Numbered from the stretch's first letter, positions 39,067 through 54,617 are shown. The stretch is DNA of 55,735 bases from an uncultured virus (IMG/VR IMGVR_UViG_3300025127_000014) (IMGVR_UViG_3300025127_000014); one strand, 5' to 3'. The notes: generated by a model from the sequence alone, not told the origin. Numbers and translations: made by a program.

Positions 39067-39312
39067 GTGGACTTAAGTAAGGGCGATTTAATCCGTTGGA
39101 TAGACGATTATGATATGTATGAGGCATCTGAGGGTGAGATACAACCAATTCACCCAATTTATGCTTATGGCATAATCATGGAAGTCTCTAAAAATGATCC
39201 TAAAAATGTTGTGGTTTGCAGAATAGAAAGCAACGGTCCCAATTTAGTTTTACACATGATACATGATGGTTTTGAATTGGTTAGTAGTTCAAAAACAACA
39301 AATAGTTCTTGA
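39067..39312 (+). CDS. SH3/KOW-like small protein (KGDLIRW)
   Basis: GDL..GIIMEV..FELVS family pattern. Confidence 0.65.
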   Translation: MDLSKGDLIRWIDDYDMYEASEGEIQPIHPIYAYGIIMEVSKNDPKNVVVCRIESNGPNLVLHMIHDGFELVSSSKTTNSS

Positions 39313-39337
39313 CACATCACCACTATTCAGTTATTAT
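39309..39337 (+). promoter_or_regulatory. Sigma70-type promoter; probably leaderless transcript
   Basis: TTGACA-17-TATTAT; ATG at 39344. Confidence 0.7.
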
Positions 39338-39343
39338 ATGTAC

Positions 39344-39610
39344 ATGGATAAAGACATTATTTGGAAAGCACAGATGGCAGCACTCCGTGAAATGGAAGTA
39401 AATCTAGTGTCCTTGATCAAAGCTGCAAAAGAAACACAAAGCCGTATTCGTGATGACGGCCTCAGTGCCAACTTCAGCCAAAATCATGATTGCTATGCCT
39501 ACGCTGTAGGAGTGTGGAAGCAGAGTCTGCGTCTTGCAGAGTTAAAAAAACTTGAATATGAGGTTACTGGCCGAGATCAGAACGGCAGAAAGAAAAAAGA
39601 GGGTCACTAG
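39344..39610 (+). CDS. Hypothetical protein; stop lies inside tRNA-Lys
   Basis: Start reassigned downstream of promoter. Confidence 0.65.
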   Translation: MDKDIIWKAQMAALREMEVNLVSLIKAAKETQSRIRDDGLSANFSQNHDCYAYAVGVWKQSLRLAELKKLEYEVTGRDQNGRKKKEGH

Positions 39611-39676
39611 CTCAGTTGGTAGAGCATCGGACTTTTAATCCGCTGGCCGCAGGTTCGAATCCTGCGTGACCCACCA
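39601..39676 (+). tRNA. tRNA-Lys(TTT)
   Basis: GGGTCAC/GTGACCC acceptor, CT-TTT-AA loop, GTTCGAATC, encoded CCA. Confidence 0.95.
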
Positions 39677-39691
39677 CTTAAAGGAGGAAAA

Positions 39692-39862
39692 ATGATTGAC
39701 TATACAATCATGGAATATAATATCGAAACTAGAAAATATACTGCTATTGGCGTGGCCGAGGGCAGTGATGGCAAGATTGCCAAGCAAAACTATATTAACA
39801 GACATGGCTGGACGCCACGTGAAAACATTTTGTTATTTGCAAAGCCCCCGCTGTGTCGTTAA
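39692..39862 (+). CDS. 56-aa hypothetical protein (MIDYTIMEYN...)
   Basis: AAGGAGG RBS; fills space between tRNAs. Confidence 0.7.
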   Translation: MIDYTIMEYNIETRKYTAIGVAEGSDGKIAKQNYINRHGWTPRENILLFAKPPLCR

Positions 39863-39868
39863 ATTTTC

Positions 39869-39945
39869 GGGCTCTTAGCTCAGTTGGTCAGAGCACGCGG
39901 CTCATAACCGCATGGTCGTGGGTTCAAGTCCCACAGAGCCCACCA
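39869..39945 (+). tRNA. tRNA with CAT anticodon, Ile2 (lysidine)-like
   Basis: GGGCTCT/AGAGCCC acceptor, CT-CAT-AA loop; resembles bacterial tRNA-Ile2, lacks initiator features. Confidence 0.9.
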
Positions 39946-39966
39946 TCTTAATAAAGGAGAAGCCAT

Positions 39967-40113
39967 ATGGCTAGTAAAAAAAACACCACAGGCTCAACGA
40001 GTCATAAGAAGAAAACGAGTATCGGCAACGGTACAAACACAAAGCGCAAGCAGCCCGGACCCCACGGTGGCAATAAGGGATACAAAAAGCGTTATAGGGG
40101 TCAAGGTAAGTGA
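39967..40113 (+). CDS. 48-aa very basic peptide ending YKKRYRGQGK
   Basis: AAGGAG RBS; GTGA overlap with next ORF. Confidence 0.8.
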   Translation: MASKKNTTGSTSHKKKTSIGNGTNTKRKQPGPHGGNKGYKKRYRGQGK

Positions 40114-40307
40114 TTTATACCGCTGTATTTCAAGATAAAGATGGACATTATCACTTCGAGACGCATGTCGCAACACATGATCGGCGTGTAGCATGGCGCG
40201 AGGTTTACAAAAAGCGTTCAAACACTGATGCATGTTTAGTTATGTTGATTGATGGTCAAGCAAATGTCAGGACTCATGAAGATATTGTTGACATTAACGA
40301 ACAATAG
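40110..40307 (+). CDS. Hypothetical protein
   Basis: GTGA coupling. Confidence 0.65.
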   Translation: MIYTAVFQDKDGHYHFETHVATHDRRVAWREVYKKRSNTDACLVMLIDGQANVRTHEDIVDINEQ

Positions 40308-40315
40308 GTTATACT
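40288..40315 (+). promoter_or_regulatory. Sigma70-type promoter; probably leaderless transcript
   Basis: TTGACA-16-TATACT; ATG at 40322. Confidence 0.65.
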
Positions 40316-40321
40316 AATAGC

Positions 40322-40711
40322 ATGAAACAAGCAAAAGTTAGAAAACACACTGTCGGATTTTTTCGAAATGATGCCGAAGTGCCTTTCATTAATCTAGAAA
40401 TGTTTGAGACAATTGAACAGGCAACGGGTATACCTCACTATTGGCGTGATCGAAATGGTAATGTCTCACAGTTTTGGCACAGCGGGATCATACCTAAAGG
40501 CACGGGTGTTGTATGTCAACATCGCGAGCGTGGGATGAAACACACGTTCTGGACTGTAACTGATCCTGAAAGTGAACTTATTGGCAAAATGTTCATCATT
40601 GGCCATACGTTTAAGGATCGTCAGGAAGATGAGTTTGAGAGGTTTGAGTACTCGAACATTTCGCCTACGTTAAAGTATTCGATTTTAGCAGAAAAGCCCT
40701 TGACAAAGTAA
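40322..40711 (+). CDS. Hypothetical protein
   Basis: 129-aa ORF between two promoters. Confidence 0.75.
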   Translation: MKQAKVRKHTVGFFRNDAEVPFINLEMFETIEQATGIPHYWRDRNGNVSQFWHSGIIPKGTGVVCQHRERGMKHTFWTVTDPESELIGKMFIIGHTFKDRQEDEFERFEYSNISPTLKYSILAEKPLTK

Positions 40712-40728
40712 TGAGTAGATATTATAAT
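40700..40728 (+). promoter_or_regulatory. Consensus sigma70 promoter for tRNA-Arg cluster
   Basis: TTGACA-17-TATAAT. Confidence 0.8.
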
Positions 40729-40736
40729 ATATACAT

Positions 40737-40813
40737 GCGTCAGTAGCTCAGTTGGATAGAGCATCGGCCTTCTAAGCCGAGGGTCGCAGGTTCGAGCCCT
40801 GCCTGACGTGCCA
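40737..40813 (+). tRNA. tRNA-Arg(TCT)
   Basis: GCGTCAG/CTGACGT acceptor, TCGGC-CTTCTAA-GCCGA arm, CCA. Confidence 0.95.
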
Positions 40814-40835
40814 TCTAATAACAAAAGGAGATAAA

Positions 40836-41018
40836 ATGTTAGTTAGAAATGAAAATGCATCAGTGGCCTTCTTTGTGGCATCGCTGGTGTCCGTAGCAGC
40901 AAGTATCTTTGTATGGGTATCGGCTGATGGTGATCCCGCTCATGCCGAAAGGTTTGGTATTTTTGTCGGGCTGTGGGCACCCACGCTAATGGGACTTGCA
41001 AACTACTTTAGGGAATAA
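40836..41018 (+). CDS. Small two-TM protein (GIFVGLWAPT motif)
   Basis: AAGGAG RBS; two hydrophobic helices. Confidence 0.8.
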   Translation: MLVRNENASVAFFVASLVSVAASIFVWVSADGDPAHAERFGIFVGLWAPTLMGLANYFRE

Positions 41019-41151
41019 AATGGAATCAAACTTAAACGAGTTCGTGGGGATGGTGAGCATTGTTTGCAGTGCCACCTTCTTCATACTTATGTTTCGCTGG
41101 GGTATCCATCAGTTCGGTCGCACTGAGTCTAAACTTCAGCAAACAAACAAC

Positions 41152-41227
41152 GCGGGTGTAACTCAGCGGTAAGAGTAGTCGCCTTATATGCGATTGGTCG
41201 CAGGTTCAAATCCTGCCACCCGTACCA
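41152..41227 (+). tRNA. tRNA-Ile(TAT)
   Basis: GCGGGTG/CACCCGT acceptor, GTCGC-CTTATAT-GCGAT arm, GGTTCAAATCC, ACCA. Confidence 0.88.
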
Positions 41228-41230
41228 TAT

Positions 41231-41306
41231 TGCCCCTTAGCTCAGTTGGTAGAGCAAGCGACTGTTAATCGCTGGGTCCACGGTTCAAGTCCGTGAGGGG
41301 CAGCCA
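41231..41306 (+). tRNA. tRNA-Asn(GTT)
   Basis: TGCCCCT/AGGGGCA acceptor, AGCGA-CTGTTAA-TCGCT arm, GCCA. Confidence 0.95.
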
Positions 41307-41324
41307 TTTTATAAAGGAGAAAAC

Positions 41325-41513
41325 ATGGGATACCACGATAGGTTGCCACCAAGCTATAACGAGACAACGGGGATTGGCGTCGTCAATCCATTACGCGATC
41401 TTCAAAAACGCTTGGATGCTATCCAAGATATTATTAGTGAACTTCCAGAGAAGGCTATGTCTACTGCTGAACTTTCAGTTAGGATTCAAAAGGCACTCGA
41501 TGGTGAAGGATAA
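41325..41513 (+). CDS. Hypothetical protein
   Basis: AAGGAG RBS. Confidence 0.7.
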   Translation: MGYHDRLPPSYNETTGIGVVNPLRDLQKRLDAIQDIISELPEKAMSTAELSVRIQKALDGEG

Positions 41514-41863
41514 TGAACGATTATTATATGAATAAAGTATCATTACCGCGTTCTGTAAGATCCCAAACTAAATTAAGGGAGTCCCTTGCAGCTTGGGGAA
41601 CAGATAGATTACTTCACGTTGTCAATGCGTGCCATGACAGCCAAGATCAGTTTCGTTCAGACTTTGGACGTATTCACAATAGATATGCAAACATGACATT
41701 TTTGATTACTGAGGCAGTGCCCGACGACAAGCTAGCCTATGCAGCCGAAACGCTTTTGATTTGGCTTCAAGAGGATTTTGATAAGGCCGATACTGGCCCA
41801 CGTAAAGAAGCGGCAGGTATTTGTTCTGCCGAGTTGTTTAACATTCTTAAACTTTATAGTTAG
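41513..41863 (+). CDS. Hypothetical protein
   Basis: TAATG coupling. Confidence 0.7.
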   Translation: MNDYYMNKVSLPRSVRSQTKLRESLAAWGTDRLLHVVNACHDSQDQFRSDFGRIHNRYANMTFLITEAVPDDKLAYAAETLLIWLQEDFDKADTGPRKEAAGICSAELFNILKLYS

Positions 41864-41877
41864 AAAGGAGAAAGATA

Positions 41878-42036
41878 ATGAGAACATTTATGGGATATGC
41901 ATTTAAGTTTGCAGTTTTTTATTTTGGCATCAACTGGCTTGCCGATAATCCGCAAGTTATTGATAGTGTACGTAAAATGACAAACAGTGCGGTGGCTGTT
42001 GCCACTACCGCTATTGCATCGGTTGTGTCTGGATGA
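41878..42036 (+). CDS. 52-aa hydrophobic peptide (MRTFMGYAFK...)
   Basis: AAGGAG RBS; ATGA overlap with next ORF. Confidence 0.65.
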   Translation: MRTFMGYAFKFAVFYFGINWLADNPQVIDSVRKMTNSAVAVATTAIASVVSG

Positions 42037-42287
42037 CGATGCTCACAACATTTATTTTAGTTGGTATGGTTGACTCTTTTGATCCATATTTTGCCACGGT
42101 TGAACTAAATACTACACCAGCATCTAACGGTGGTCCTTCAATAGCGGTGATGCCAGTCTCGGTATTTCCTTGTGAGATTTACGAAGGTAAAGTTTTTTAT
42201 GTCGTTAAACTTCATGAGGATCAGGACGCAACCATCGTATGCCAAAAGGAAGTAAAAGATGACACCGGAAGAAGAAAAGCTGATTGA
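42033..42287 (+). CDS. Hypothetical protein
   Basis: ATGA coupling. Confidence 0.65.
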   Translation: MTMLTTFILVGMVDSFDPYFATVELNTTPASNGGPSIAVMPVSVFPCEIYEGKVFYVVKLHEDQDATIVCQKEVKDDTGRRKAD

Positions 42288-42435
42288 CGAGTGTATTGAA
42301 TCGCATTATAATATGATTAGGCACCACAGGCGACAGATTCTTGAACTTTGTCGTCGCAAAGAAAAGGGTTGTGCCGAAAAGATTTGCATGGAGTGTTTCG
42401 ATTTTGACATCATTGTTAAAAATCAAGATAGGTGA
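42259..42435 (+). CDS. 58-aa Cys-containing peptide (MTPEEEKLID...)
   Basis: AAGGA RBS; fills gap. Confidence 0.55.
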   Translation: MTPEEEKLIDECIESHYNMIRHHRRQILELCRRKEKGCAEKICMECFDFDIIVKNQDR

Positions 42436-42613
42436 TTTAGTCAAGTGGGAAAGTGTGACGAACGATGTGCAAGCAGTTCGTGAGCATTACGGTGTAGTTA
42501 TAGCATTTTCGCGTACTGGACACGAAACACTTTCAGCAAATGTTTTGTTTACTGATGGCGAAACATGGTGGGTCGATACCGGCAGGTTAGAGGTGATAAA
42601 TGAAGGTCGGTAA
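42404..42613 (+). CDS. SH3/KOW-like small protein (KIGDLVKW...LEVI)
   Basis: Family motif; GGAG then TTG 42404 (start uncertain). Confidence 0.7.
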   Translation: MTSLLKIKIGDLVKWESVTNDVQAVREHYGVVIAFSRTGHETLSANVLFTDGETWWVDTGRLEVINEGR

Positions 42614-42755
42614 TCTAATTAAACACAAAGTAACTGGTATGATTAGCATAGTGACTTGGACCGGTCGATATGGCGCTCATTTTAAAGTGGCGGGATTCCC
42701 TGTCAATCAGGTTTTTACGTCTGAAGCATGGGAGTGTATAAGTGAAAGTCGGTGA
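42600..42755 (+). CDS. SH3/KOW-like small protein (MKVGNLIK)
   Basis: GAGGT RBS; 51 aa, not in ORF track. Confidence 0.7.
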   Translation: MKVGNLIKHKVTGMISIVTWTGRYGAHFKVAGFPVNQVFTSEAWECISESR

Positions 42756-42927
42756 TCTCGTTAAGATTAAAGATGGGGTGCACGAAGATGGTATACCGTT
42801 TCACCGTCATGCTGTGATTGTTGGTGATATAAACGAGCAGGGAGATTATCAAGTTATGTTTTTTGGTTATGAAAAAACATTTAGTTTCAACAAGTTTTTC
42901 ATTGTCCCGCTACAAAAAGTAGATTGA
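42742..42927 (+). CDS. SH3/KOW-like small protein (MKVGDLVKI)
   Basis: Family motif; overlapping junction. Confidence 0.75.
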   Translation: MKVGDLVKIKDGVHEDGIPFHRHAVIVGDINEQGDYQVMFFGYEKTFSFNKFFIVPLQKVD

Positions 42928-42998
42928 TTTTTATGGTTGTTTTTTTTGAAAAGGTCAAAAGCATTTTAGACACTTATTTATTACTGGGGGTTAATCCG

Positions 42999-43304
42999 GT
43001 GGCTAACATATTTTTTAACGAAGAGAAGACCCCAAAGCAGGAAGCCATTAACCAAATGCTGGTTCATATTGGTAACTATTTTGATGGTAGATATGAGGTA
43101 ATCGCAGGCAGTGATGATGGTGGTAGTTTACTAGAAGTACAGGTGGAGGTTGACGATGTAAGTCAAACTATTGAATCTCAACATGAGACTTTTCCTTTCT
43201 TCGATGTTTGGCCTAAATGGATGGGCTGGCGCGTTGTTGTGTGTAAGGTTCCACCCGGCTATATCGATGCTATTACCAACGGAGTTGAACTTGACGACTA
43301 CTGA
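42999..43304 (+). CDS. Acidic hypothetical protein
   Basis: GGGGG then GTG 42999; ACTTATTTA upstream. Confidence 0.65.
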   Translation: MANIFFNEEKTPKQEAINQMLVHIGNYFDGRYEVIAGSDDGGSLLEVQVEVDDVSQTIESQHETFPFFDVWPKWMGWRVVVCKVPPGYIDAITNGVELDDY

Positions 43305-43491
43305 GTTAAAGGTTGGTGATCTTATTTCATTCAAGCCGATTGATTTTGGGCTGGAAGATTGGTCTAATCCGAGCATTGTTATGCACGAGTACGAGCCTCC
43401 CAACGAAGGGCTGTGGAGCATTTGGTGTGATGGGGTGTTCTGTGTCATAGACGATGCTAACTATGAAATACTGCACCTGACAGTCTCTTGA
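43291..43491 (+). CDS. SH3/KOW-like small protein (LKVGDLISF)
   Basis: GGAG then TTG 43291; stop in promoter box 2. Confidence 0.7.
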   Translation: MTTTELKVGDLISFKPIDFGLEDWSNPSIVMHEYEPPNEGLWSIWCDGVFCVIDDANYEILHLTVS

Positions 43492-43531
43492 CAACATATA
43501 CCTTGACCGGTGATACTTCCGGTGCTATATT
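43477..43531 (+). promoter_or_regulatory. Triple-box promoter 1
   Basis: CTGACA 43477, TTGACA 43488, TTGACC 43503, TATATT 43526. Confidence 0.85.
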
Positions 43532-43551
43532 TTATAAGTAAGGAGAGAGAA

Positions 43552-43755
43552 ATGGATTGGCCACAATGTTTTGACTGCGGTGAAGAGTTCAACCCTAAGC
43601 GCAAGGCGCTTGGTTATGAGTATTGTTTGGAGTGTGGTGAGAACCACGCACACGAAGTATCTGAGCGTATGAAGAAATGTACCGCACCACTTTATAACAA
43701 GGGTGCTTATCAATATGTAGGAAGCGTGCAAGATGCACGATGGGCAGGTAGATAA
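43552..43755 (+). CDS. C4 zinc-finger protein (DksA/TraR-like spacing)
   Basis: AAGGAG then ATG 43552; CFDCGEE..PKR.ALG...CLEC. Confidence 0.75.
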   Translation: MDWPQCFDCGEEFNPKRKALGYEYCLECGENHAHEVSERMKKCTAPLYNKGAYQYVGSVQDARWAGR

Positions 43756-44096
43756 TGATGAAAGTTTGGGTTATGCAAGGAAGCTATGAGGGCGAAGTAT
43801 TCTCATCGGTTCATCTTACACAGAAAGGTTGCGCCCTCGCGTGTATCGCTGATGTGTTGGAGTTCTTGGGCGTCGATGACAATGAGACTGCTTTGGGTGT
43901 TATGAATGATGTATACTCGTACACCGAGACTGACGGCGAGCAAACGGAAGCGTTCGAGTGGGATCAAGAAAAGATGAAGAGCATGACCAGCAAAGAGTTG
44001 TGGAAGATTTTTTCTGACTGGACCGAAATCAGTTGGGATCGTATGTCAGATCGTTCTTATTATATTGACGCACAGCCTATGGAGATTCAAGCATGA
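43755..44096 (+). CDS. Hypothetical protein
   Basis: TAATG coupling. Confidence 0.7.
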   Translation: MMKVWVMQGSYEGEVFSSVHLTQKGCALACIADVLEFLGVDDNETALGVMNDVYSYTETDGEQTEAFEWDQEKMKSMTSKELWKIFSDWTEISWDRMSDRSYYIDAQPMEIQA

Positions 44097-44275
44097 GAGT
44101 AGGGAGTTTGGTACACAGCCGCCACGATCCCGGTTATCAAGGTATTGTCATGGAGATAGGCCCAGAGGAAACGCGTGTCGACCATGAACGCCGCGCCTGT
44201 CGAGTGCGATGGCTGGACGGCGGCGAATCTATTGAGTTTATTAGAATGTTGGAGGTTATAAGTGAAGGAAAATAG
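44093..44275 (+). CDS. SH3/KOW-like small protein (MRVGSLV...LEVI)
   Basis: Family motif. Confidence 0.75.
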   Translation: MRVGSLVHSRHDPGYQGIVMEIGPEETRVDHERRACRVRWLDGGESIEFIRMLEVISEGK

Positions 44276-44387
44276 AACATTTAAAGATGACATTAGAAGA
44301 GCAGAACAGGCCACGCTCGCTTTTAGTTGGCTTGGTATTATCTCTGCGCTGACAATCATTGGTTATTCTTTTTGGAGTTTATCATGA
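44262..44387 (+). CDS. 41-aa single-TM peptide (MKENRTFKDD...)
   Basis: GGAGGT then GTG; ATGA overlap downstream. Confidence 0.55.
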   Translation: MKENRTFKDDIRRAEQATLAFSWLGIISALTIIGYSFWSLS

Positions 44388-44683
44388 AGGCGGGCGATCT
44401 TGTAACGCTCTCCGCGTATGCATTACAAACTAATGATCTACGTCGTTGGAGCCGGCGGATCTGGATTGATAAAAAGCCCTTGGTTGGTTTAATCGTGGAA
44501 GTTAAAGATATACCCAAAGTACACTCTTGGACTTCCGCAAATGAGAAAAAGCGTTATTATGTGGAGTGGATGCAGAATGACGGCCCCAATGGTAGATGGG
44601 GAAGAAGTTTTAATAAAAATAGGGATGATGCCTATTTTCTTAGGAATGACTTAAAGTTTGTAAAAAAAGGAGATTTCAAATGA
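44384..44683 (+). CDS. SH3/KOW-like protein (MKAGDLVTL)
   Basis: GGAG then ATG 44384; family motif. Confidence 0.75.
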   Translation: MKAGDLVTLSAYALQTNDLRRWSRRIWIDKKPLVGLIVEVKDIPKVHSWTSANEKKRYYVEWMQNDGPNGRWGRSFNKNRDDAYFLRNDLKFVKKGDFK

Positions 44684-45018: not shown

Positions 45019-45058
45019 CAATAAATGGGTTGCATTGTGTATCAGAAAGGGCTATATT
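45004..45058 (+). promoter_or_regulatory. Triple-box promoter 2
   Basis: TTGACA 45004, TTGACA 45015, TTGCAT 45030, TATATT 45053. Confidence 0.8.
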
Positions 45059-45084
45059 ATAAGAGTAGAAAGGAGAAAATACAC

Positions 45085-45459
45085 ATGGGTTATCGTTCAG
45101 AAGTTATCTTGGCAGTCGGCGCAGAAGTCATGCCTCAGTTTATGATCACAATGGCAAAGTCGCCACAGGCACGCGAGTTGTGTTGGGCAAATCATGATGA
45201 AATGATCAAAGACTATGCCGGTGAGAAGGGGGCGTTCCTGTTCCGTTGGAATGGTATCAAGTGGTACGATAGTTATGAATGTGTACAGGCCATTGTTGAC
45301 TTTATTGATTGGTGTGAGAACGAAAGCATTGAAGTCGATGGCAAGGAAGTCGATGCATATGATTATTACCGCTTCGTTCGCATCGGTGAGGAAATGGATG
45401 ACAACGAGGCTCAAGGGTGGGGATTTGATATTCATATTGAAAGGAGCGCGACATACTAA
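45085..45459 (+). CDS. Phage hypothetical protein (MGYRSEV...IKWY...FVRIGEE.DD)
   Basis: AAGGAG then ATG 45085. Confidence 0.8.
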   Translation: MGYRSEVILAVGAEVMPQFMITMAKSPQARELCWANHDEMIKDYAGEKGAFLFRWNGIKWYDSYECVQAIVDFIDWCENESIEVDGKEVDAYDYYRFVRIGEEMDDNEAQGWGFDIHIERSATY

Positions 45460-45716
45460 TGAGATTCAAGAAAGGCGATAAGGTTTGGATGATCACTACA
45501 GGGTCCGCAGACGCGCGTATCCCATCATCAAAAGGCATAGTCTCAGAAGTTGTAGCGAGCAAGATGAGAGTTGTTTTAGAGAATGGTGACACAATCATCC
45601 AGAATGTCGAAAATGATCCAGATTTGATGGTGAGATTCGTACACGATATTACCCCTTCCCCAGCTTCGCGCGATTTTTTCTCGCCAAAAAATCTCTTTTT
45701 CAACATATTTAAATAA
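45459..45716 (+). CDS. SH3/KOW-like small protein (MRFKKGDKVW)
   Basis: AAGGAG RBS; family-like motif. Confidence 0.7.
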   Translation: MRFKKGDKVWMITTGSADARIPSSKGIVSEVVASKMRVVLENGDTIIQNVENDPDLMVRFVHDITPSPASRDFFSPKNLFFNIFK

Positions 45717-46455: not shown

Positions 46456-46557
46456 ATGTGGGACTTAAAGACTCTTGAGAAGCTAAATGTAGAACGTGAA
46501 AAGTACCTTAAAGAGCAGCAAAAAAAAGAAGAAACTAAGGAGAAAAGAAATGACTAA
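46456..46557 (+). CDS. 33-aa charged peptide (MWDLKTLEKLN...)
   Basis: First ATG after promoter with AAGGA RBS. Confidence 0.6.
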   Translation: MWDLKTLEKLNVEREKYLKEQQKKEETKEKRND

Positions 46558-46714
46558 AGTCGGAGACTTGGTGCGCGTGAGCACGAAGCATAACGGTGAT
46601 AAGCTGGGTGTGGTTGTGAAGATTGACAAGGACGGTGTTCATATCAAGGCGCAAAACCATCCTCGTGACATTCTCGCGCTGCATCAGGACGTTAAAGTTT
46701 TGGTAAGCGCATGA
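46550..46714 (+). CDS. SH3/KOW-like small protein (MTKVGDLVRV)
   Basis: AAGGAG then ATG 46550. Confidence 0.75.
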   Translation: MTKVGDLVRVSTKHNGDKLGVVVKIDKDGVHIKAQNHPRDILALHQDVKVLVSA

Positions 46715-46920
46715 AAGTCGGTGATCTCGTAAAACGCGCCGGTAAAAACAAAAAAGCCGGTCTGGTTACAGATATTATTGACAAAAAATGCTGGCGCACA
46801 GATGTGCTTGGTAAGCTGGTTAGCTGGGATAAAGTTGAGCCGGAGCCACATGCTGTGGTGCTGATAGGAGATCGCTACTTTACCATACCCGTTATAGATT
46901 TAGAGGTTGTTGTCAGTTGA
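46711..46920 (+). CDS. SH3/KOW-like small protein (MKVGDLVKR...LEVVVS)
   Basis: Family motif; ATGA coupling. Confidence 0.78.
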   Translation: MKVGDLVKRAGKNKKAGLVTDIIDKKCWRTDVLGKLVSWDKVEPEPHAVVLIGDRYFTIPVIDLEVVVS

Positions 46921-47508: not shown

Positions 47509-47999
47509 TGGGAGATTTGATTGATCTTGATGAGTACCGTAAAAGTAAGCAGACTGAGAACCCCCGACAAGAACGCTTTGAAGAAGTTTTAAGACTACTT
47601 GATGAGTTTTTGGAAGCTAATCCAGTTGAACTTAGCCCTTGGTTTATTACTCTTGACGAGCTTGGTGATATGATGATGAATAAAACCCCTATTGAAGTAA
47701 CATGGCCACCGATGCTATACACTGACCATCACGGCCAAAAGTGGGCGATCTCTGGTCAGAACTGGCTTGAGGTGCCTGATGATACTACTTTTGAATCACT
47801 GGACCGCTATATGGTGCATAAGCCACGCGAAAGCGGTCAACAGTTGGCGGAAGTTGTAACCTATGAGGTTCTAAGCAGCAAGGGTGACAAGACATATACT
47901 GTAACTGATCATGGCGGTACGTGGACGTGTACGTGCGCCGGGTTTGGGTGGCGTCGGAAGTGTAAGCATATTGAGCAGGCCAAAAATGAAAGTCGGTGA
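47508..47999 (+). CDS. SWIM zinc-finger protein
   Basis: YTVT....WTCTCAGFGWRRKCKHI (CxC-x7-CKH). Confidence 0.8.
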   Translation: MGDLIDLDEYRKSKQTENPRQERFEEVLRLLDEFLEANPVELSPWFITLDELGDMMMNKTPIEVTWPPMLYTDHHGQKWAISGQNWLEVPDDTTFESLDRYMVHKPRESGQQLAEVVTYEVLSSKGDKTYTVTDHGGTWTCTCAGFGWRRKCKHIEQAKNESR

Positions 48000-48156
48000 T
48001 TTAGTAAAGTATAAGAACACTGTGTCAAAAAAATGTGGGATTGTATTGGAACACGGCGATTATGCATTTGCTTGTGATATATTCATCTATTGGTTTGACG
48101 AATCCTACGCGCGTGGAGAAAGATCCGGCGATTTGCATCTCTTGTCATTTGCTTGA
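47986..48156 (+). CDS. SH3/KOW-like small protein (MKVGDLVKY)
   Basis: Family motif; stop in promoter box 2. Confidence 0.75.
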   Translation: MKVGDLVKYKNTVSKKCGIVLEHGDYAFACDIFIYWFDESYARGERSGDLHLLSFA

Positions 48157-48195
48157 CACAACTTTGATTGACTTTACCTCACAGGGCGTTATATT
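48142..48195 (+). promoter_or_regulatory. Triple-box promoter 5
   Basis: TTGTCA 48142, TTGACA 48153, TTGACT 48168, TATATT 48190. Confidence 0.8.
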
Positions 48196-48216
48196 ATATG
48201 TATGTAAGGGAGAGAT

Positions 48217-48405
48217 ATGAAAGTAGGTGATTTAGTAAAACTATCATATAACCAACGATCAAATAATGCGCGTGTCGGGCTGGTGATCGATCAACTGCCT
48301 AAAGATTTCACGTATGGCAGAAATACAGGAGATTTCTATGTTGTCCAGTGGAATGATGGGGTTCGCGATACTATTCGCTCGCAGTTTTTAGAGGTTGTCA
48401 AATGA
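48217..48405 (+). CDS. SH3/KOW-like small protein (MKVGDLVKL...LEVVK)
   Basis: Family motif. Confidence 0.8.
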   Translation: MKVGDLVKLSYNQRSNNARVGLVIDQLPKDFTYGRNTGDFYVVQWNDGVRDTIRSQFLEVVK

Positions 48406-48578
48406 AAGTCGGAGATTTAGTAAGGATTAAACACACTGATGTTGTGGCTCTCGTCACACGAATAGAGTTTAAGGCGAACTTCTACAAGTCTGTTACCAGA
48501 CCGACTGAGTGGGTTTTCTTGGCCGGTCAAGACTTGCCTCGCAGACCACACAGATTGGAGGTTGTAAATGCGACTTGA
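48402..48578 (+). CDS. SH3/KOW-like small protein (MKVGDLVRI...LEVVNAT)
   Basis: 58 aa, not in ORF track; GAGGT RBS. Confidence 0.75.
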   Translation: MKVGDLVRIKHTDVVALVTRIEFKANFYKSVTRPTEWVFLAGQDLPRRPHRLEVVNAT

Positions 48579-48741
48579 AACAGGAACATTAGTAAGCTGG
48601 AGAGGATCGGTAGGTCTTGTTATGGGCGCTTGCAAAAAGCGATGGGCCAAAGATGATGATGTGTGGGTAAAGTGGACAGATGAACCCAAACTAAAGATTG
48701 AGAGTAGTAGGTTTTTGGAGGTATTAAATGCAAGTCGGTGA
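48568..48741 (+). CDS. SH3/KOW-like small protein (MRLETGTLVSW...LEVLNASR)
   Basis: 57 aa, not in ORF track; GGAGGT RBS. Confidence 0.75.
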   Translation: MRLETGTLVSWRGSVGLVMGACKKRWAKDDDVWVKWTDEPKLKIESSRFLEVLNASR

Positions 48742-48916
48742 TCTGGTAACATTTCCCGGTGCCCCAGTGCCTGCTACGGGCATTATCTTACGTACCCAGC
48801 CTGATGGTATTTATCGCGGTGACCACATAAAGCGTGTTAAAGTTTACTGGATTGAAGATGCAGAAGTTTCTTGGGAACCTATCAAATGGTTGGAGTTGGT
48901 TAATGCGTGTCGGTGA
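48728..48916 (+). CDS. SH3/KOW-like small protein (MQVGDLVTF...LELV)
   Basis: GGAGGT RBS; family motif. Confidence 0.8.
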   Translation: MQVGDLVTFPGAPVPATGIILRTQPDGIYRGDHIKRVKVYWIEDAEVSWEPIKWLELVNACR

Positions 48917-49079
48917 TCTGGTGAGGGGGTGGTTGACCCAACAACTTGGTGTCGTGCTGGAGATCGGGGGCCTCGGCGCTGTCCGCGTCGTTTGGACTAC
49001 GCAGGGCGAATCGCTTTTCGGTCCCGGCTCTACAGAGTGGTGTGATGAAAGAAGTTTGGATCTCTTGACAACCGCTTGA
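48903..49079 (+). CDS. SH3/KOW-like small protein (MRVGDLVRG)
   Basis: GGAG then ATG 48903; stop in promoter box 2. Confidence 0.75.
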   Translation: MRVGDLVRGWLTQQLGVVLEIGGLGAVRVVWTTQGESLFGPGSTEWCDERSLDLLTTA

Positions 49080-49118
49080 CAAAGTTTAGCTTGCCAAACG
49101 CTGTCAGGTTGTTATATT
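49065..49118 (+). promoter_or_regulatory. Triple-box promoter 6
   Basis: TTGACA 49065, TTGACA 49076, TTGCCA 49091, TATATT 49113. Confidence 0.8.
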
Positions 49119-49143
49119 ATAAGTATAGAAAGGAGAAAACATT

Positions 49144-50040: not shown

Positions 50041-50091
50041 CATTTCCCTGACAACTCTCGCCTTGACGGGTGAGGGTAAAGCGATTATATT
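50037..50091 (+). promoter_or_regulatory. Triple-box promoter 7 (drives tRNA-Leu)
   Basis: TTGACA 50037, CTGACA 50048, TTGACG 50063, TATATT 50086. Confidence 0.8.
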
Positions 50092-50099
50092 ATAAACAT

Positions 50100-50185
50100 G
50101 GCTGATTGGTGGAATGGTATACACAGGAGACTTAAAATCTCCCGCCCGTTTGGGCTTGCGAGTTCGAGTCTCGCATCAGCTACCA
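50100..50185 (+). tRNA. tRNA-Leu(TAA)
   Basis: GGCTGAT/ATCAGCT acceptor, GGAGA-CTTAAAA-TCTCC arm, long variable arm, ACCA. Confidence 0.93.
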
Positions 50186-50199
50186 CATTGTTAAATCAC

Positions 50200-50254
50200 T
50201 TGACATTCGCTTGACAATAAAATACTTGACTCTTATGCATTTTGGTGCTATATT
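50200..50254 (+). promoter_or_regulatory. Triple-box promoter 8
   Basis: TTGACA 50200, TTGACA 50211, TTGACT 50226, TATATT 50249. Confidence 0.85.
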
Positions 50255-50301
50255 TATAGAGTAAGGCAAAGAACTAAAACCTCAAACACTGGAGGCCCAA
50301 C

Positions 50302-51381
50302 ATGGCCATCGACTTCGCAACATTCCTCAACGTCGCCCCTCACATCCTCAACACTCGTCTGCCCGTTCTTATCCGTGGCCGTCACGGTGTCGGTAAATCT
50401 GAGGTGGTCTACATGATCGCAGAGCAGCGTGGCCTGCCAGTGGTCGAGCGCCGCGCTTCACAGATGACCGAGGGTGATCTTCTTGGTCTGCCTGACACGT
50501 CTGATCTCTCAGACGGCCGCAAGGCTACCACTTGGAACGCACCTGACTGGCTTGTGACTGCATGCACCCAGCCTGTCATGCTGTTCCTCGATGAGGTGGA
50601 CCGTGCGACTATGGAGGTTCGTCAGGGCCTTTTCGAGTTGACCGATAGCCGCAAGATCAACGGGTGGCATCTTCACCCTGAGACTTTGATCGTCGCTGCT
50701 GTCAACGGTGGCGAGCATAGTGCTCAGTATCAGGTTGGCGAAATGGATCCGGCAGAGCTTGACCGCTGGACCGTGTTCGACGTGGAGCCTTCCACTGAGG
50801 ACTGGCTCACATGGGCCAACGACAAGGTTCACACTGTGCTGTGGGATTTCATTAACCAGAACCGCATGCACTTGGAGCATGAGGGTGACTTTGAGCCAAA
50901 CAAGGTTTACCCTTCCCGTCGTAGCTGGCAACGCTTCAACGATACAGCGGCCGCTTCTGGTACTATGAACGAAGACGGTGACCGTGACCTTCTGTTCAAT
51001 CTTGCCACTGCCTTCGTCGGGTTCGAGGCCGCTGTTGCTCTCCGTGACTTCACTGAGAACTACGCATGGCAAGTGACTATTGAGGATCTACTCGATAACG
51101 GCGAGATCAGCAAGACCGCCGACTGGGGCATCAATGATCACTCTGCGATGATTGAGAAGTTTTCTTCTTCTGAGGTATTCGTCGAGGACTTGAGCGAGGG
51201 TCAGATCCAAAACCTTGCGGACTACTTTGTGTCTCTGCCTTCCGAGGTCGCCATGAAGCTGTGGACTGTGCTTGGTGAGTCTGATAACACTAACAACGTG
51301 ATCTCGCTTCACAAGGCCCAAACTACTGAGGGCACACGAGTGAGCGAACATCTGGTGGAGATCCTTGGTGGTACACAGTAA
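50302..51381 (+). CDS. MoxR-like AAA+ ATPase
   Basis: Walker A GRHGVGKS, EGDLLGLP, Walker B LFLDEVDR, AAVN, MDPAELDR, PSRRSW. Confidence 0.9.
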   Translation: MAIDFATFLNVAPHILNTRLPVLIRGRHGVGKSEVVYMIAEQRGLPVVERRASQMTEGDLLGLPDTSDLSDGRKATTWNAPDWLVTACTQPVMLFLDEVDRATMEVRQGLFELTDSRKINGWHLHPETLIVAAVNGGEHSAQYQVGEMDPAELDRWTVFDVEPSTEDWLTWANDKVHTVLWDFINQNRMHLEHEGDFEPNKVYPSRRSWQRFNDTAAASGTMNEDGDRDLLFNLATAFVGFEAAVALRDFTENYAWQVTIEDLLDNGEISKTADWGINDHSAMIEKFSSSEVFVEDLSEGQIQNLADYFVSLPSEVAMKLWTVLGESDNTNNVISLHKAQTTEGTRVSEHLVEILGGTQ

Positions 51382-51604
51382 CGCCTTCCGTCCGCCTCTC
51401 AGGGCTCCCCGCATCGGTGACTTGGTTAAGTTAACTGGTCTGGGGAGCCTTGGGAGACCCTTTAAACAACATCATGGCATCGGTGTAGTGAACGCCATTT
51501 ATAAGCCGCCTGACAAGCGTATACAGTACGAGGTTAAGTGGTTAAAAAGTGAGGAACGCATGCGATTCCATGAAGAAGACTTGCTAATAGTTTCAGAACC
51601 ATGA
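51365..51604 (+). CDS. SH3/KOW-like small protein (PRIGDLVKL)
   Basis: Family motif; start uncertain. Confidence 0.7.
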   Translation: MVVHSNAFRPPLRAPRIGDLVKLTGLGSLGRPFKQHHGIGVVNAIYKPPDKRIQYEVKWLKSEERMRFHEEDLLIVSEP

Positions 51605-51807
51605 GTGTATGGACAGATAAACTTAGTGTTGGTGATCTTCTCTATAGTGTGGATGGCAAGCCTGCGATCGTGCTTGAAAAAGTTGAGTCAGCACGGGCCA
51701 AGTACGGCGACATAGCTAATAAAAGGTGGAGGTTCAGGCTTCACATCGACGGCGAGCAAGGATGGTTAGATGAGGTTCGACTGAGAACACAGTATACACT
51801 TCCCTGA
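51601..51807 (+). CDS. SH3/KOW-like small protein (LSVGDLLY)
   Basis: ATGA coupling; stop in promoter box 1. Confidence 0.7.
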   Translation: MSVWTDKLSVGDLLYSVDGKPAIVLEKVESARAKYGDIANKRWRFRLHIDGEQGWLDEVRLRTQYTLP

Positions 51808-51858
51808 CATTTCCTTGACAACTGAAACCTTGACTTTAACCCTCCACGATGCTATATT
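51804..51858 (+). promoter_or_regulatory. Triple-box promoter 9
   Basis: CTGACA 51804, TTGACA 51815, TTGACT 51830, TATATT 51853. Confidence 0.85.
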
Positions 51859-51880
51859 ATATATGTAAGGAGAGAGAACA

Positions 51881-53119
51881 ATGTCCGACGACACTAAAAA
51901 ACCATTCAACCTTAACATGCACACCGCTCGCCTGCTTATGCGTGAGCCGTTTTTCGCTGCCCTGTCTCGTCGCATTGACAAGATCGCTACCACTGCGATC
52001 CCCACTGCTGGCGTGCGTGTCAACCCTGACAGTGCTCAGTTCGAGCTTATGTATAACCCTGAGTTCATGGGTGCGCTCTCCGATGAACACAAGTTGGGTA
52101 TTCTCAAACATGAGTTTTACCACCTTGTATTCGAGCATGTGACCAGCCGCAAGCCTGCCGATGGACTCAAGCGTATTGATAACATCGCTATGGATCTGGC
52201 TATCAACTGTCACATCGCCGGCGAGTTGCCAAGTGAAGCCAACCCCGGCCCTACTATGGGTGATGAGCCTATGCGTGCATGCATCCCCGGTGAAGGCATG
52301 TTTAAGGATCTGCCTCCGTTCAAGTCTTACGAGTGGTATCTTGAAGCCCTGAAGCAAATGCAGGAAGAACAGCAGCAGAACGGTCAAGGCCAGCCCGGTG
52401 AAGGTGATGGCGATCCGTTCGGTGGTATGGACTCACTTGACGACCACGATCAGTTCGGTGAAGTCGATGGCACCACTCAAGAGATCGCCAAGGAACGCAT
52501 GAAGGACGCGATCAAGAAAGCGGCCGAGGAAGCTGAGAAAGCCCGTAACTGGGGAACCGTATCGTCTTCCATGCGTCAGGATATTATGGATCGTATCGCA
52601 ACTAAAGTTGACTGGCGTAAGGTTCTCCGTTACTTTGTTAAAACTTCACAACGTGCTGACAAGCGTTCAACACCTCGCCGTCTTAACAAGCGGTTCCCAA
52701 AGGTCCACCCCGGCAAGCGCGTACGCCGCCAAGCCAAGATCGCAATCTCGATTGACCAGTCTGGATCGGTCGATGATGGTATGCTCGCCGCGTTCTTCTC
52801 CGAGTTGAACAAGCTGGCAGAGATCGCAGAGTTCACCGTGATCCCCTTTGATACGCGCGTTGCCGAGGACAAGGTTTATACTTGGAAGAAGGGCCAGAGC
52901 AAGAGGACCGAGCGTGTATTGACTGGTGGTACATGCTTCAACGCTCCAACCAAGTTCGTCAATAACGGCGACTTTGACGGCCATATTGTACTGACTGATC
53001 TCATGGCTCCTAAGCCTATCGCCTCCAAGTGCCAACGCATGTGGATGACCACCAAGCAGTACGCGGCACGTCCTTACTTCCAAACTAATGAGCGTATCAT
53101 CGCAATCGACACGGCTTAA
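51881..53119 (+). CDS. HExxH metallopeptidase-like + vWA domain protein (DUF2201-like, MoxR partner)
   Basis: EPFF, PTAGV, LKHEFYH, NIAMDLAIN, MIDAS-like IDQSGS, GGTCF, LTD. Confidence 0.88.
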   Translation: MSDDTKKPFNLNMHTARLLMREPFFAALSRRIDKIATTAIPTAGVRVNPDSAQFELMYNPEFMGALSDEHKLGILKHEFYHLVFEHVTSRKPADGLKRIDNIAMDLAINCHIAGELPSEANPGPTMGDEPMRACIPGEGMFKDLPPFKSYEWYLEALKQMQEEQQQNGQGQPGEGDGDPFGGMDSLDDHDQFGEVDGTTQEIAKERMKDAIKKAAEEAEKARNWGTVSSSMRQDIMDRIATKVDWRKVLRYFVKTSQRADKRSTPRRLNKRFPKVHPGKRVRRQAKIAISIDQSGSVDDGMLAAFFSELNKLAEIAEFTVIPFDTRVAEDKVYTWKKGQSKRTERVLTGGTCFNAPTKFVNNGDFDGHIVLTDLMAPKPIASKCQRMWMTTKQYAARPYFQTNERIIAIDTA

Positions 53120-53122
53120 ACT

Positions 53123-53401
53123 ATGAAAATGACCTTAGTAATAGACACCAATGACCGAGAAGGGATTAATGACGCCTTGAAGATGGTACGGATCATGCAC
53201 GAAAAGTATGCGGGCAACGTCACATATCACAAAGAGTCATTTGGTAAAATCGAGTTCATTAAACTACTTCGCAAGTTCATGCGTGAGTCTGTTGCTCACC
53301 TTAAAGACGAGGATGATGGACAGGTAAAAGATGTCAACGATCTCAGTAACTTACGTAATGCCAAGCGATTTGCTGATCGCATATTTGCAGGTGAGCGATG
53401 A
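53123..53401 (+). CDS. Hypothetical protein (KIEFIKLLR...LRNAKRFAD, L7/L12 C-terminal-like pattern)
   Basis: ORF in chain; motif resemblance weak. Confidence 0.65.
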   Translation: MKMTLVIDTNDREGINDALKMVRIMHEKYAGNVTYHKESFGKIEFIKLLRKFMRESVAHLKDEDDGQVKDVNDLSNLRNAKRFADRIFAGER

Positions 53402-53601
53402 AGACCGGCGATCTTGTCACGTATTGGTACCAACTCTCACGATGGCAGAAGGGTCTATCTGTCCACGTTGGTCTGGTTATCGAGACTGGAAAGTTTACCG
53501 GTAACCGTGACGTTAAAGTTTTATGGACAAACGATCCAGAGCCACAAACCGAATGCACTCAACATCTTGCGCTCGTTGATGACATTTCCTTGACAACTTA
53601 A
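53398..53601 (+). CDS. SH3/KOW-like small protein (MKTGDLVTY)
   Basis: Family motif; ATGA coupling. Confidence 0.75.
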   Translation: MKTGDLVTYWYQLSRWQKGLSVHVGLVIETGKFTGNRDVKVLWTNDPEPQTECTQHLALVDDISLTT

Positions 53602-53633
53602 ACCTTGACTTCTACCCGTTTCGGTGCTATATT
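53579..53633 (+). promoter_or_regulatory. Triple-box promoter 10
   Basis: ATGACA 53579, TTGACA 53590, TTGACT 53605, TATATT 53628. Confidence 0.85.
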
Positions 53634-53657
53634 ATAAGGGTAGAAAGGAGAAAGCAT

Positions 53658-53771
53658 ATGCTTCAAAACCGCAACGGCATGATGGCCGCCCTGATTATCG
53701 CTGATCTGACCTGCTGGTCTGGTCTTATTATCCTCGCCTTTAAGTGGGCATCCTGCACATGTGGAGCATAA
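53658..53771 (+). CDS. 37-aa hydrophobic peptide (MLQNRNGMMAALII...)
   Basis: AAGGAG RBS right after promoter. Confidence 0.65.
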   Translation: MLQNRNGMMAALIIADLTCWSGLIILAFKWASCTCGA

Positions 53772-53772
53772 A

Positions 53773-54159
53773 ATGAATGACGAAGTATTGAATATCAAAC
53801 TGACCGAATCAGAAATCAATCTGATTACGTTGCTTCTGGAGCAAGCCGGTACGATGGAAGACGAAAACGGCCAACCAGCTTTTGAGTTGCTGCACGATAT
53901 TATGGAGCAGACTGCACGCATTGATGATCCTGATTGGGACATTGACCCTACTGACCTCAACGGGCGCACCTTTAGCGTGGCAGAAAGTGATTTTATCGAT
54001 CACGGCATCCGAGCCCGTGAAATGCAGAAGCATACCAGCATGGCCGCGAACCGCCGCACCATGCGCTTCGGTGAGTTTAACGTCGAGGCTGCTGATGAGC
54101 GATCTGATCAGCAGAGCGTTGATGTATGGGAACGCCCCAATGATCCGACTAAGTGGTAG
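53773..54159 (+). CDS. Acidic hypothetical protein
   Basis: GGAG then ATG 53773. Confidence 0.75.
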   Translation: MNDEVLNIKLTESEINLITLLLEQAGTMEDENGQPAFELLHDIMEQTARIDDPDWDIDPTDLNGRTFSVAESDFIDHGIRAREMQKHTSMAANRRTMRFGEFNVEAADERSDQQSVDVWERPNDPTKW

Positions 54160-54163
54160 ATAA

Positions 54164-54310
54164 ATGCAAGTAGGTAGTTTGGTGCGTGAGGTTATGGATG
54201 GCAACGTCGGGATCATTGTAGCGTGGGAAAGTGACGGCTGGCTTGTCAACTTCCCACAGTTTAACATGGTATTCCACATGCTGCCGAAACTGCTGGAAGT
54301 AGTAGAATAA
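54164..54310 (+). CDS. SH3/KOW-like small protein (MQVGSLVRE...LEVVE)
   Basis: 48 aa, not in ORF track; family motif. Confidence 0.72.
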   Translation: MQVGSLVREVMDGNVGIIVAWESDGWLVNFPQFNMVFHMLPKLLEVVE

Positions 54311-54615: not shown

Positions 54616-54617
54616 TC

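What the first reader, a model, noticed from the sequence alone, without database searches (positions are those of the whole stretch)
39067..54310. Expansion of about 20 hypervariable 'MKVGDLV...LEVV' SH3/KOW-like mini-proteins
Seen: members at 39067, 42404, 42600, 42742, 43291, 44093, 44384, 45459, 46550, 46711, 47986, 48217, 48402, 48568, 48728, 48903, 51365, 51601, 53398 and 54164, plus 27557. They share M-[KRQ]-V-G-D-L-V, a central G-[LIV]-[VI], often V-x-W, and terminal L-E-V-[VI], with unrelated loops. Five are in tandem at 48217-49079. Known: this pattern fits small beta-barrel SH3/KOW/Tudor folds. Inference: a diversified library of small binders on one scaffold, expressed early, for example anti-defence or host-takeover effectors.
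Basis: partly seen in the sequence, partly recalled or inferred. Interest (0 to 1): 0.8.

Follow-up and report, generated by a model that had tools for sequence, protein, structure and literature searches.

The report
Shuffled library of phage mini-barrel genes
An uncultured marine phage carries about 20 very different versions of one tiny barrel-shaped protein, and its relatives gain, lose and reorder whole versions at a short shared DNA overlap between neighbouring genes; what the proteins bind is still unknown.

Summary
The expansion is real: about 19 of the 21 listed ORFs form one family (27557 and 45459 are doubtful). Two members model as five-strand SH3-like barrels (pLDDT 87, 91); none reaches a Pfam cut-off. 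The window is from an uncultured marine T4-like, DnaE-encoding phage clade; two complete relatives hold 31 and 35 copies, five distant T4-like phages none. 'Hypervariable' needs correcting: paralogs are ~24% identical, but orthologs are under purifying selection (dN/dS 0.24-0.32), and 1186 members fall into 607 subfamilies without saturation. The conserved ends are partly a DNA element: a ~30-nt dual-coding overlap holding one gene's last strand and stop plus the next gene's ribosome site, start and first strand (397 of 608 close pairs). Twelve of 14 indels that add or remove whole members have both ends there. Best reading: a recombination-shuffled library of early host-interaction binders, akin to T4 PeSL shuffling. 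Function is inferred only. This scan found the same system before on other genomes.

The parts
27557..27760 (+). doubtful member, outside the array region
   Evidence: leave-one-out E 0.22; not found by the rebuilt profile; ortholog in G002 with pN 0.17 < pS 0.60
39067..39312 (+). member (81 aa)
   Evidence: leave-one-out E 0.0011; 18 bits
42404..42613 (+). member, subfamily 17; start uncertain (TTG)
42587..42619 (+). dual-coding junction, 14-nt overlap into 42600
   Evidence: repeat family D6
42600..42755 (+). member, subfamily 54
   Evidence: 19.8 bits; ortholog 94% identical, pS 0.62, pN 0.04
42729..42761 (+). dual-coding junction, 14-nt overlap into 42742
42742..42927 (+). member, subfamily 0
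43291..43491 (+). member, acidic subfamily 12
   Evidence: weak itself; orthologs score 18-27 bits; pN 0.09 < pS 0.71; net charge -9
43474..43553 (+). first of the ~80-nt repeated promoter elements (tandem TGACA boxes, -35, 17-nt spacer, -10, ribosome site); boxes also at 45005, 46379, 46918, 49066, 50038, 50201, 51805, 53580, 54380, 54619, 55043, and a variant at 48132-48213
   Evidence: consensus match only, activity not tested
44093..44275 (+). member, subfamily 26
44384..44683 (+). long-loop member (99 aa), subfamily 23, net charge +9
45459..45716 (+). doubtful member
   Evidence: leave-one-out E 34; not found by the rebuilt profile; no ortholog
46550..46714 (+). member, subfamily 16
46711..46920 (+). 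member, subfamily 48; 4-nt overlap with 46550
47973..48005 (+). junction in which a non-family ORF (47508-47999) takes its stop from the head of member 47986
47986..48156 (+). member, singleton subfamily
48217..48405 (+). member, singleton; first of the five-gene tandem
48402..48578 (+). member, subfamily 172
48568..48741 (+). member, subfamily 13
   Evidence: ortholog 87% identical, pS 0.58, pN 0.05
48715..48747 (+). dual-coding junction, 14-nt overlap into 48728
48728..48916 (+). member, subfamily 5; modelled as a five-strand SH3-like barrel
   Evidence: pLDDT 87.4
48890..48922 (+). dual-coding junction, 14-nt overlap into 48903
48903..49079 (+). member, subfamily 3; its 3' end overlaps the promoter boxes at 49066
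51365..51604 (+). member, subfamily 8, between the AAA+ ATPase and vWA-peptidase genes; start uncertain
51601..51807 (+). member, subfamily 2
   Evidence: weak itself; G002 ortholog 12.4 bits; ortholog 86% identical, pN 0.09 < pS 0.54
53398..53601 (+). member, subfamily 1; modelled as an SH3-like barrel with a helix in loop 1
   Evidence: pLDDT 91.1
54164..54310 (+). member, subfamily 21 (48 aa)
3676..4791 (+). phage RecA-like recombinase, candidate agent of the exchanges
   Evidence: TIGR02012 E 1e-39, below that model's cut-off; PF00154 over cut-off in 5 of 5 relatives; role inferred

Best explanation
An accessory-gene library in the early, hyperplastic region of a lytic T4-like phage clade. 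SHOWN by sequence and models: (1) the members share one SH3-like beta-barrel whose core strands are kept while the loops differ; (2) each subfamily is separately conserved, so the paralogs have diverged and are kept as distinct genes; (3) genes are chained by a ~30-nt dual-coding junction holding the last strand and stop of gene A and the ribosome site, start and first strand of gene B; (4) close relatives differ by whole units bounded by 11-30-nt near-repeats in that junction. INFERRED: (5) homologous or microhomology recombination between junction copies (unequal crossover in mixed infections, or loop-out) adds, deletes and reorders genes while leaving each in frame with its own translation signals; phage RecA is the obvious candidate; (6) the arrays are transcribed early from repeated sigma70-type promoters and translationally coupled; (7) the products are cytoplasmic binders, each subfamily engaging a different host partner, mostly proteins (defence components and take-over targets), so that repertoire turnover tracks host strain diversity. 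Steps 1-4 about 0.95, step 5 about 0.8, step 6 about 0.75, step 7 about 0.5.
For: Fold; the profile also retrieves SH3-clan repeat proteins. Core columns over 600 subfamily representatives: G 100%, D 91%, strand-2 G 82%, strand-3 V 70% and W 63%. Selection: dN/dS 0.24-0.32 in four bins by synonymous distance (23, 45, 78, 189 pairs; junction codons trimmed; largest chained cluster left out); pN < pS for 17 of 17 window members with an ortholog. Junction: 397 of 608 adjacent pairs within 60 nt (of 1105 adjacent pairs) overlap by exactly 14 nt; SD-like word in 316 of 391 such starts against 180 of 380 others. Indels: L005/L062 (99% identical) differ by one 176-bp gene bounded by a perfect 20-nt repeat; five events in L008/L052; 12 of 27 clean indels have both ends in junction zones that cover 7.6% of the sequence, and 12 of 14 of those carrying whole members. 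A-B-A intermediates and 15 same-locus duplicates exist. No tyrosine recombinase (0 of 5) or reverse transcriptase (0 of 5); RecA in 5 of 5. Distinct surfaces: net charge -8 to +6 (5th-95th percentile), median 0, SD 4.0 between and 1.8 within subfamilies. Only 7 of 1186 have a membrane-like hydrophobic window. Shared subfamilies fall from 0.96 to 0.41, 0.12 and 0.02 as ATPase identity falls.
Against: No target, host or activity was identified. Breakpoints at gene ends are also expected if selection removes broken genes, and ungapped alignments run on into any shared junction, so the 12-of-14 figure overstates the case for the junction as crossover site. Two of the 27 events are repeats of others, one of them among the 12; 11 of 27 lie in neither junction nor promoter. 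Loops show no pooled positive selection (0.37), which a fast arms race might predict. In the window only 4 member-to-member 14-nt overlaps exist, and many members stand alone. The subfamily count depends on a 45% identity threshold, and 403 of 607 are singletons, so divergence and turnover are confounded. Promoters are consensus matches; looser -35/-10 matches also occur 13 times in 1-38000.
Confidence: 0.55

Rival explanations
1. The barrels are mainly nucleic-acid or transcription/translation-machinery binders (like KOW domains of NusG, Spt5 and uL24, PWWP domains, or the KOW part of T4 MotB) that remodel the host nucleoid, RNA polymerase or ribosome.
For: Top Foldseek rows are a PWWP-ssDNA complex (E 0.025) and many KOW/PWWP chains; KOW domains are tied near the top in VIA (Z 6.0-6.1); weak uL24 and NusG hits. 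MotB is an early T4 DNA-binding protein with a predicted KOW domain (PMC7827196). 15.5% of subfamilies have net charge >= +4.
Against: No family-wide basic bias: median charge 0, and 22% are <= -4. No KOW or PWWP Pfam hit among 21 or 150 members. One machinery offers few targets for hundreds of subfamilies (inference).
Confidence: 0.2
2. A largely self-propagating cassette family: the junction makes gain and loss easy and harmless, so copies accumulate with weak individual benefit, and selection mostly keeps the fold and the translational coupling.
For: Fast turnover, 403 singleton subfamilies; units lost between 99%-identical genomes; the motifs at both ends are forced by the overlap.
Against: dN/dS 0.24-0.37 on interior codons, loops included; subfamily-specific charge; some orthologs 86-94% identical at pS about 0.55-0.7.
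Confidence: 0.12
3. The proteins are packaged internal head proteins, or adaptors for phage-encoded chaperone and protease machines (the AAA+/vWA-peptidase pair inside the region, or ClpP), in the manner of HspQ.
For: HspQ is among the fold matches (5ycq). Subfamilies 8 and 2 lie between the ATPase and vWA genes in 12 of 80 loci. A ClpP-like gene is present. The T4 IP locus is a shuffled palette of small packaged proteins (PMC4122927).
Against: 43 of 80 loci have no member between those genes, and the others carry varied subfamilies; fold matches are tied and non-specific; the arrays lie far from the head genes in G004.
Confidence: 0.08
4. The junction is the target of a dedicated site-specific recombinase, as in integrons.
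For: Whole-gene cassettes and a strongly conserved ~30-nt site.
Against: No PF00589 recombinase in 5 of 5 complete records; inferred crossovers fall at different places within the junction. Other recombinase families were not searched.
Confidence: 0.05

Closest known systems
PeSL (promoter-early stem-loop) modular shuffling in T4-type hyperplastic regions (PMC2839356, passages; PMC4122927, parts 1-2 of 3)
   Same: Short repeated expression signals serve as homology for gain, loss and exchange of small ORFs in a variable region of a T4-like genome; repeated sigma70-type promoter plus ribosome-site elements are present here too.
   Different: Here most family indels map to a repeat inside the coding ends of one paralog family, not to an intergenic promoter (12 junction-junction against 1 promoter-promoter event). 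The cargo is one fold, not unrelated ORFans. Spacer stem-loops are not enriched. Mini-circles were not tested.
Small SH3/Tudor-like proteins of phages (SPbeta YorP, 2heq; T4-type gp30.5; the largest bacteria-specific fold clusters in PMC12487901, passages)
   Same: Same fold class and size, function mostly unknown.
   Different: Here 13-35 copies per genome in chained arrays; no sequence-level membership at curated cut-offs. That YorP is an SPbeta prophage gene is recalled.
Bacillus phage G zinc-ribbon expansion (~35 copies; PMC7824862, passage)
   Same: Lineage-specific expansion of a small domain to tens of copies in a large phage.
   Different: Different fold; the passage read describes no dual-coding junction or shuffling.
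Integron cassette arrays (recalled)
   Same: Arrays of single-gene units that are gained, lost and reordered.
   Different: No tyrosine recombinase; the shared site is protein-coding; the cargo is one family.
T4 MotB (PMC7827196, passages) and the T4 IP locus (PMC4122927)
   Same: Non-essential small T4 proteins acting on the host; KOW fold in MotB; shuffled palette at the IP locus.
   Different: MotB is a two-domain KOW-OB protein conserved among Tevenvirinae; no homology to these members was tested.

Membership tests
SH3-like small beta-barrel (fold level) | five-strand barrel superposing on SH3/KOW/Tudor/PWWP domains | tested here: met
   2 of 2 modelled members have five strands; TM by query 0.5-0.7 to PWWP, KOW, YorP, R67; VIA Z 5-6.3, rmsd 1.6-5.0, 47-60 aligned. 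The other 19 were not modelled.
KOW motif proteins (PF00467) | Pfam KOW match at the curated cut-off | tested here: not met
   0 of 21 window members and 0 of 150 subfamily representatives list KOW
Tudor/PWWP/chromo (Royal family) readers | family HMM match or PWWP motif | tested here: not met
   no cut-off hit (one sub-threshold Spin-Ssty hit, E 0.002); PWWP-type motif (recalled) in 0 of 1186
Tudor/PWWP/chromo (Royal family) readers | aromatic cage for methylated residues | not tested
   side-chain geometry of the models was not inspected
DfrB / R67 dihydrofolate reductase | active-site tetrapeptide (recalled) and DHFR_2 match | tested here: not met
   loose motif in 4 of 1186; no DHFR_2 hit for members; fold likeness only
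DfrB / R67 dihydrofolate reductase | homotetramer | not tested
PeSL elements | repeated sigma70-like promoter with ribosome site and start codon in a hyperplastic region | tested here: met
   12 tandem-box elements at 43478-55043, none on the - strand; 11 with -35/-10, none outside the region
PeSL elements | stem-loop within the element | tested here: inconclusive
   only the -35 to -10 stretch was folded: 1 of 11 in the window and 1 of 23 overall beat shuffles at p<=0.05; upstream positions not tested
PeSL elements | indels mapping to the element | tested here: inconclusive
   1 of 27 events promoter-promoter, 2 with one end in a promoter zone; 12 map to the coding junction instead
PeSL elements | excised mini-circles during infection | not testable with these tools
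   needs inverse PCR or raw reads; only assembled contigs were laid
Integron | tyrosine recombinase (IntI) | tested here: not met
   PF00589 in 0 of 5 complete records; control rings in 14 of 14
Integron | attC hairpin sites | not tested
   no attC model was run
Diversity-generating retroelement | reverse transcriptase | tested here: not met
   PF00078 in 0 of 5 records; control rings in 3 of 14
Known anti-defence protein families | homology to, or activity of, a characterised inhibitor | tested here: inconclusive
   no named hit in Pfam, PHROGs (only weak unknown-function families, best E 0.001), NCBIfam (5 members) or PDB sequences; activity not testable here

The most novel reading that the evidence does not exclude
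A phage clade maintains an open-ended repertoire of hundreds to thousands of single-scaffold binders, each aimed at a different host defence or take-over target. The scaffold's own first and last strands encode the recombination site, and occasional crossovers in the inner strands also swap loops between subfamilies (17 cross-subfamily loop matches against 0-1 in five shuffles; one clear DNA-level mosaic). That would be a recombinase-free, self-formatted binder library.
Probability: 0.3. Interest if true: 0.85.

Novelty: new variant of a known kind. Interest (0 to 1): 0.62.

Why it matters
If the members are specific host-protein binders, the clade offers a ready-made, synthesisable library of at least 600 natural ~60-aa variants of one fold for finding new anti-defence and host-control activities. 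It would also give a testable role to SH3/Tudor-like proteins, the largest unexplained fold class among phage proteins (PMC12487901). The junction shows how a gene family can carry its own exchange site inside its coding ends, extending PeSL-type shuffling from promoters to single genes.

Tried and rejected
No whole genome is held for this window; the nearest record G001 is a 34-kb fragment without a match. Host: not found. No GenBank phage above ~31% to DnaE among the 25 rows shown; best capsid matches 34-45%; the GroEL search named no organism. Three MAG contigs carry the junction pattern, but they lie in three unrelated taxa and hold phage-like arrays, so I treat them as mis-binned phage DNA, not host evidence. 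Expression: no RNA holder listed. Contigs of 4 runs were laid; one joint skips 48402-48727 start to start, but with only 30 letters on its short side at 88% likeness, so it is not used. Complex prediction (homodimer of 48728) was not available, so oligomeric state is open. The atlas gave only unnamed viral clusters and SH3-clan leads at 0.86-0.91. An obligatory link to the AAA+/vWA pair was rejected: 43 of 80 loci have no member between them. Intragenic loop shuffling as the main engine was not supported: only 4 of 562 anchored members are triplet mosaics, and shared loops may be retained by descent. The pooled junction-enrichment count (493 of 638) is biased by alignment run-on and is not relied on. 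Literature: searches listed no paper whose title or abstract start describes this family or junction; the library lacks most subscription papers, and supplements of PMC7824862 (S1.4) and PMC12487901 (dataset S1), which I did not open, may list such expansions.


Full report
Observation. The 21 ORFs are present at the stated places, 48-99 aa, 24% identical on average. A start motif written from them occurs 18 times on the + strand of 39000-55735 and nowhere else in the window, against 0.2-0.3 expected from simulated sequence. Leave-one-out profiles recover 15 of 21 at E<=0.0011. With a profile rebuilt from relatives and with ortholog scores, about 19 are members; 27557 and 45459 are doubtful. 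The strict terminal L-E-V-[VI] is in only 6 of 21.

Context. The window encodes DnaE, RecA, a DnaB-like helicase, class II ribonucleotide reductase, GroEL and a ClpP-like protein and six tRNAs. The AAA+ ATPase at 50302 retrieved 239 viral relatives, of which 80 loci were kept. A complete relative, G004 (195 kb), has a T4-like gp23 capsid, portal, sheath, tube, baseplate, terminase and a tubulin; I scanned 106 of the 124 listed ORFs of >=140 aa. No close cultured relative was found. The best DNA holders are marine metagenomes. The host is unknown.

Spread. All 80 loci hold at least one member (1-32 at >=12 bits; 1 hit in reversed decoys). G004 and G002 hold 35 and 31. Whole-record searches found 15-26 in 5 of 5 records and 13-32 in 5 of 5 more, but none in 5 of 5 distant T4-like phages. 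From 1273 candidate frames, 35 were dropped (- strand, cut ends, no anchor motif) and 52 more as duplicates of G002/G004, leaving 1186 members in 81 sources, some near-identical. They form 607 subfamilies at 45% interior identity, 403 of them singletons, and the count is still rising.

Fold. AlphaFold models of 48728 and 53398 are confident five-strand barrels (pLDDT 87.4 and 91.1). Foldseek finds no match at E<=0.001 and ties PWWP, chromo, KOW, YorP, HspQ and R67. VIA gives Z up to 6.3 with the same mix. The nearest viral models are unnamed or uncharacterised. No member reaches a Pfam cut-off (0 of 21; 0 of the first 150 subfamily representatives). The fold class is established; family and function are not.

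Selection. With junction codons trimmed, orthologous pairs give dN/dS 0.24-0.32 when binned by synonymous distance, and 0.11-0.18 when binned by protein identity (a biased choice). All 17 window members with an ortholog have pN < pS. Loops give 0.37 and strands 0.27 over 81 pairs. The genes are therefore real and kept, and the diversity lies between subfamilies. Net charge spans -8 to +6 with median 0 and is subfamily-specific; 7 of 1186 have a membrane-like segment. This fits many different soluble partners better than one shared nucleic-acid ligand (inference).

The junction. Of 1105 adjacent pairs, 608 lie within 60 nt and 397 overlap by exactly 14 nt (57 by 4 nt). The codons of the last strand of gene A carry the GGAGG ribosome site of gene B, and B's first codons supply A's last residues and stop. 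The glycine codon of the start motif is GGT in 391 of 391 overlapped starts and 272 of 380 others, against 1487 of 5057 interior glycines. Unrelated ORFs also end in this overlap (65 cases of >=45 aa). In the window four member pairs use it.

Shuffling. Subfamilies recur in changed order with changed neighbours; subfamily 13 has 8 different downstream partners in 11 cases. L005 and L062 are 99% identical and differ by one 176-bp gene bounded by a perfect 20-nt repeat. L008 and L052 differ by five such blocks. Of 27 clean indels, 12 have both ends in junction zones (7.6% of sequence), as do 12 of the 14 that carry whole members; 11 lie elsewhere, and two events are counted twice. Selection for intact genes and alignment run-on inflate this signal, so the junction as crossover site is likely, not proven. 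There is no tyrosine recombinase or reverse transcriptase in 5 complete records, and RecA is in all 5. Loop-level mosaics exist but are rare (4 of 562).

Expression signals. An ~80-nt element with tandem TGACA boxes, a -35, a 17-nt spacer, a -10 and a ribosome site recurs 11-12 times in 43474-55099 and is confined to this region. This fits early transcription by host polymerase but is a consensus match only.

Mechanism and odds. The best account is an early accessory library of single-scaffold binders, shuffled by recombination at a dual-coding junction (0.55 overall; architecture ~0.95, recombination at the junction ~0.8, host-protein binding ~0.5). Rivals: nucleic-acid or machinery binders (0.2), weakly selected self-propagating cassettes (0.12), packaged proteins or chaperone adaptors (0.08), dedicated recombinase (0.05).

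Known kin. It works like PeSL shuffling in T4-type phages (PMC2839356, passages; PMC4122927, parts 1-2 of 3). It is not shown to be a PeSL system: spacer stem-loops are not enriched (1 of 23) and most family indels map to coding junctions. SH3/Tudor-like folds are the largest bacteria-specific clusters among viral proteins (PMC12487901, passages). A ~35-copy zinc-ribbon expansion is known in phage G (PMC7824862, passages). MotB is a KOW-bearing early T4 protein (PMC7827196, passages). Eight searches listed no paper describing this family; supplements were not opened.

Earlier notes. A word look-up found nothing. Searches then returned four AI notes on other genomes describing the same arrays, junction and PeSL likeness. 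I had noted the junction and the PeSL lead before and tested them here; those notes are not independent support.

Verdict. Real, clade-wide and under selection; a new variant of known phage shuffling with an unusual in-gene exchange site and an unusually large single-fold repertoire. Function is open. Interest 0.62.

Noticed in passing
window 43474-55099: The repeated promoter carries two TGACA boxes 11 bp apart upstream of the -35. Read on the other strand this resembles a PhoB/OmpR-type direct repeat (recalled); it could also be extra sigma-region-4 sites.
   Followed up: partly
window 23791-24039: 82-aa protein matching only region 4 of sigma70 factors (E 1e-5); a candidate binder of the tandem -35-like boxes.
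   Followed up: no
window 50302-53119: AAA+ ATPase and peptidase-vWA gene pair inside the variable region (AAA_5 and DUF2201 in the G004 orthologs), like the MoxR-vWA pair noted for group 2.2 jumbo phages (PMC7824862); 35 of 80 loci have family members between the two genes.
   Followed up: partly
window 39601-41306 and 50100-50185: Six tRNA genes (Lys, Met, Arg-TCT, Ile-TAT, Asn, Leu-TAA).
   Followed up: no
window 49066 and 53580; loci: Last genes of arrays often run into the promoter boxes, giving L-T-T-type tails; 138 of 487 box elements lie at a member's 3' end.
   Followed up: partly
L003:1116, L061:3650, L061:5610: Three members start 5-9 nt after a -10 box, suggesting leaderless mRNAs.
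   Followed up: no
L081:9063-10202 (G004): Tubulin/FtsZ-family gene in a 195-kb T4-like genome that uses DnaE.
   Followed up: no
window 18597-20444: GHKL-type ATPase with a weak match to the anti-phage ATPase MzaB (E 3e-7), next to an adenine methyltransferase at 20952.
   Followed up: no
window 24111-24782: Very acidic low-complexity protein with D-M repeats.
   Followed up: no
L101-L103: Contigs in three bacterial MAGs carry these arrays and look like mis-binned phage DNA.
   Followed up: partly
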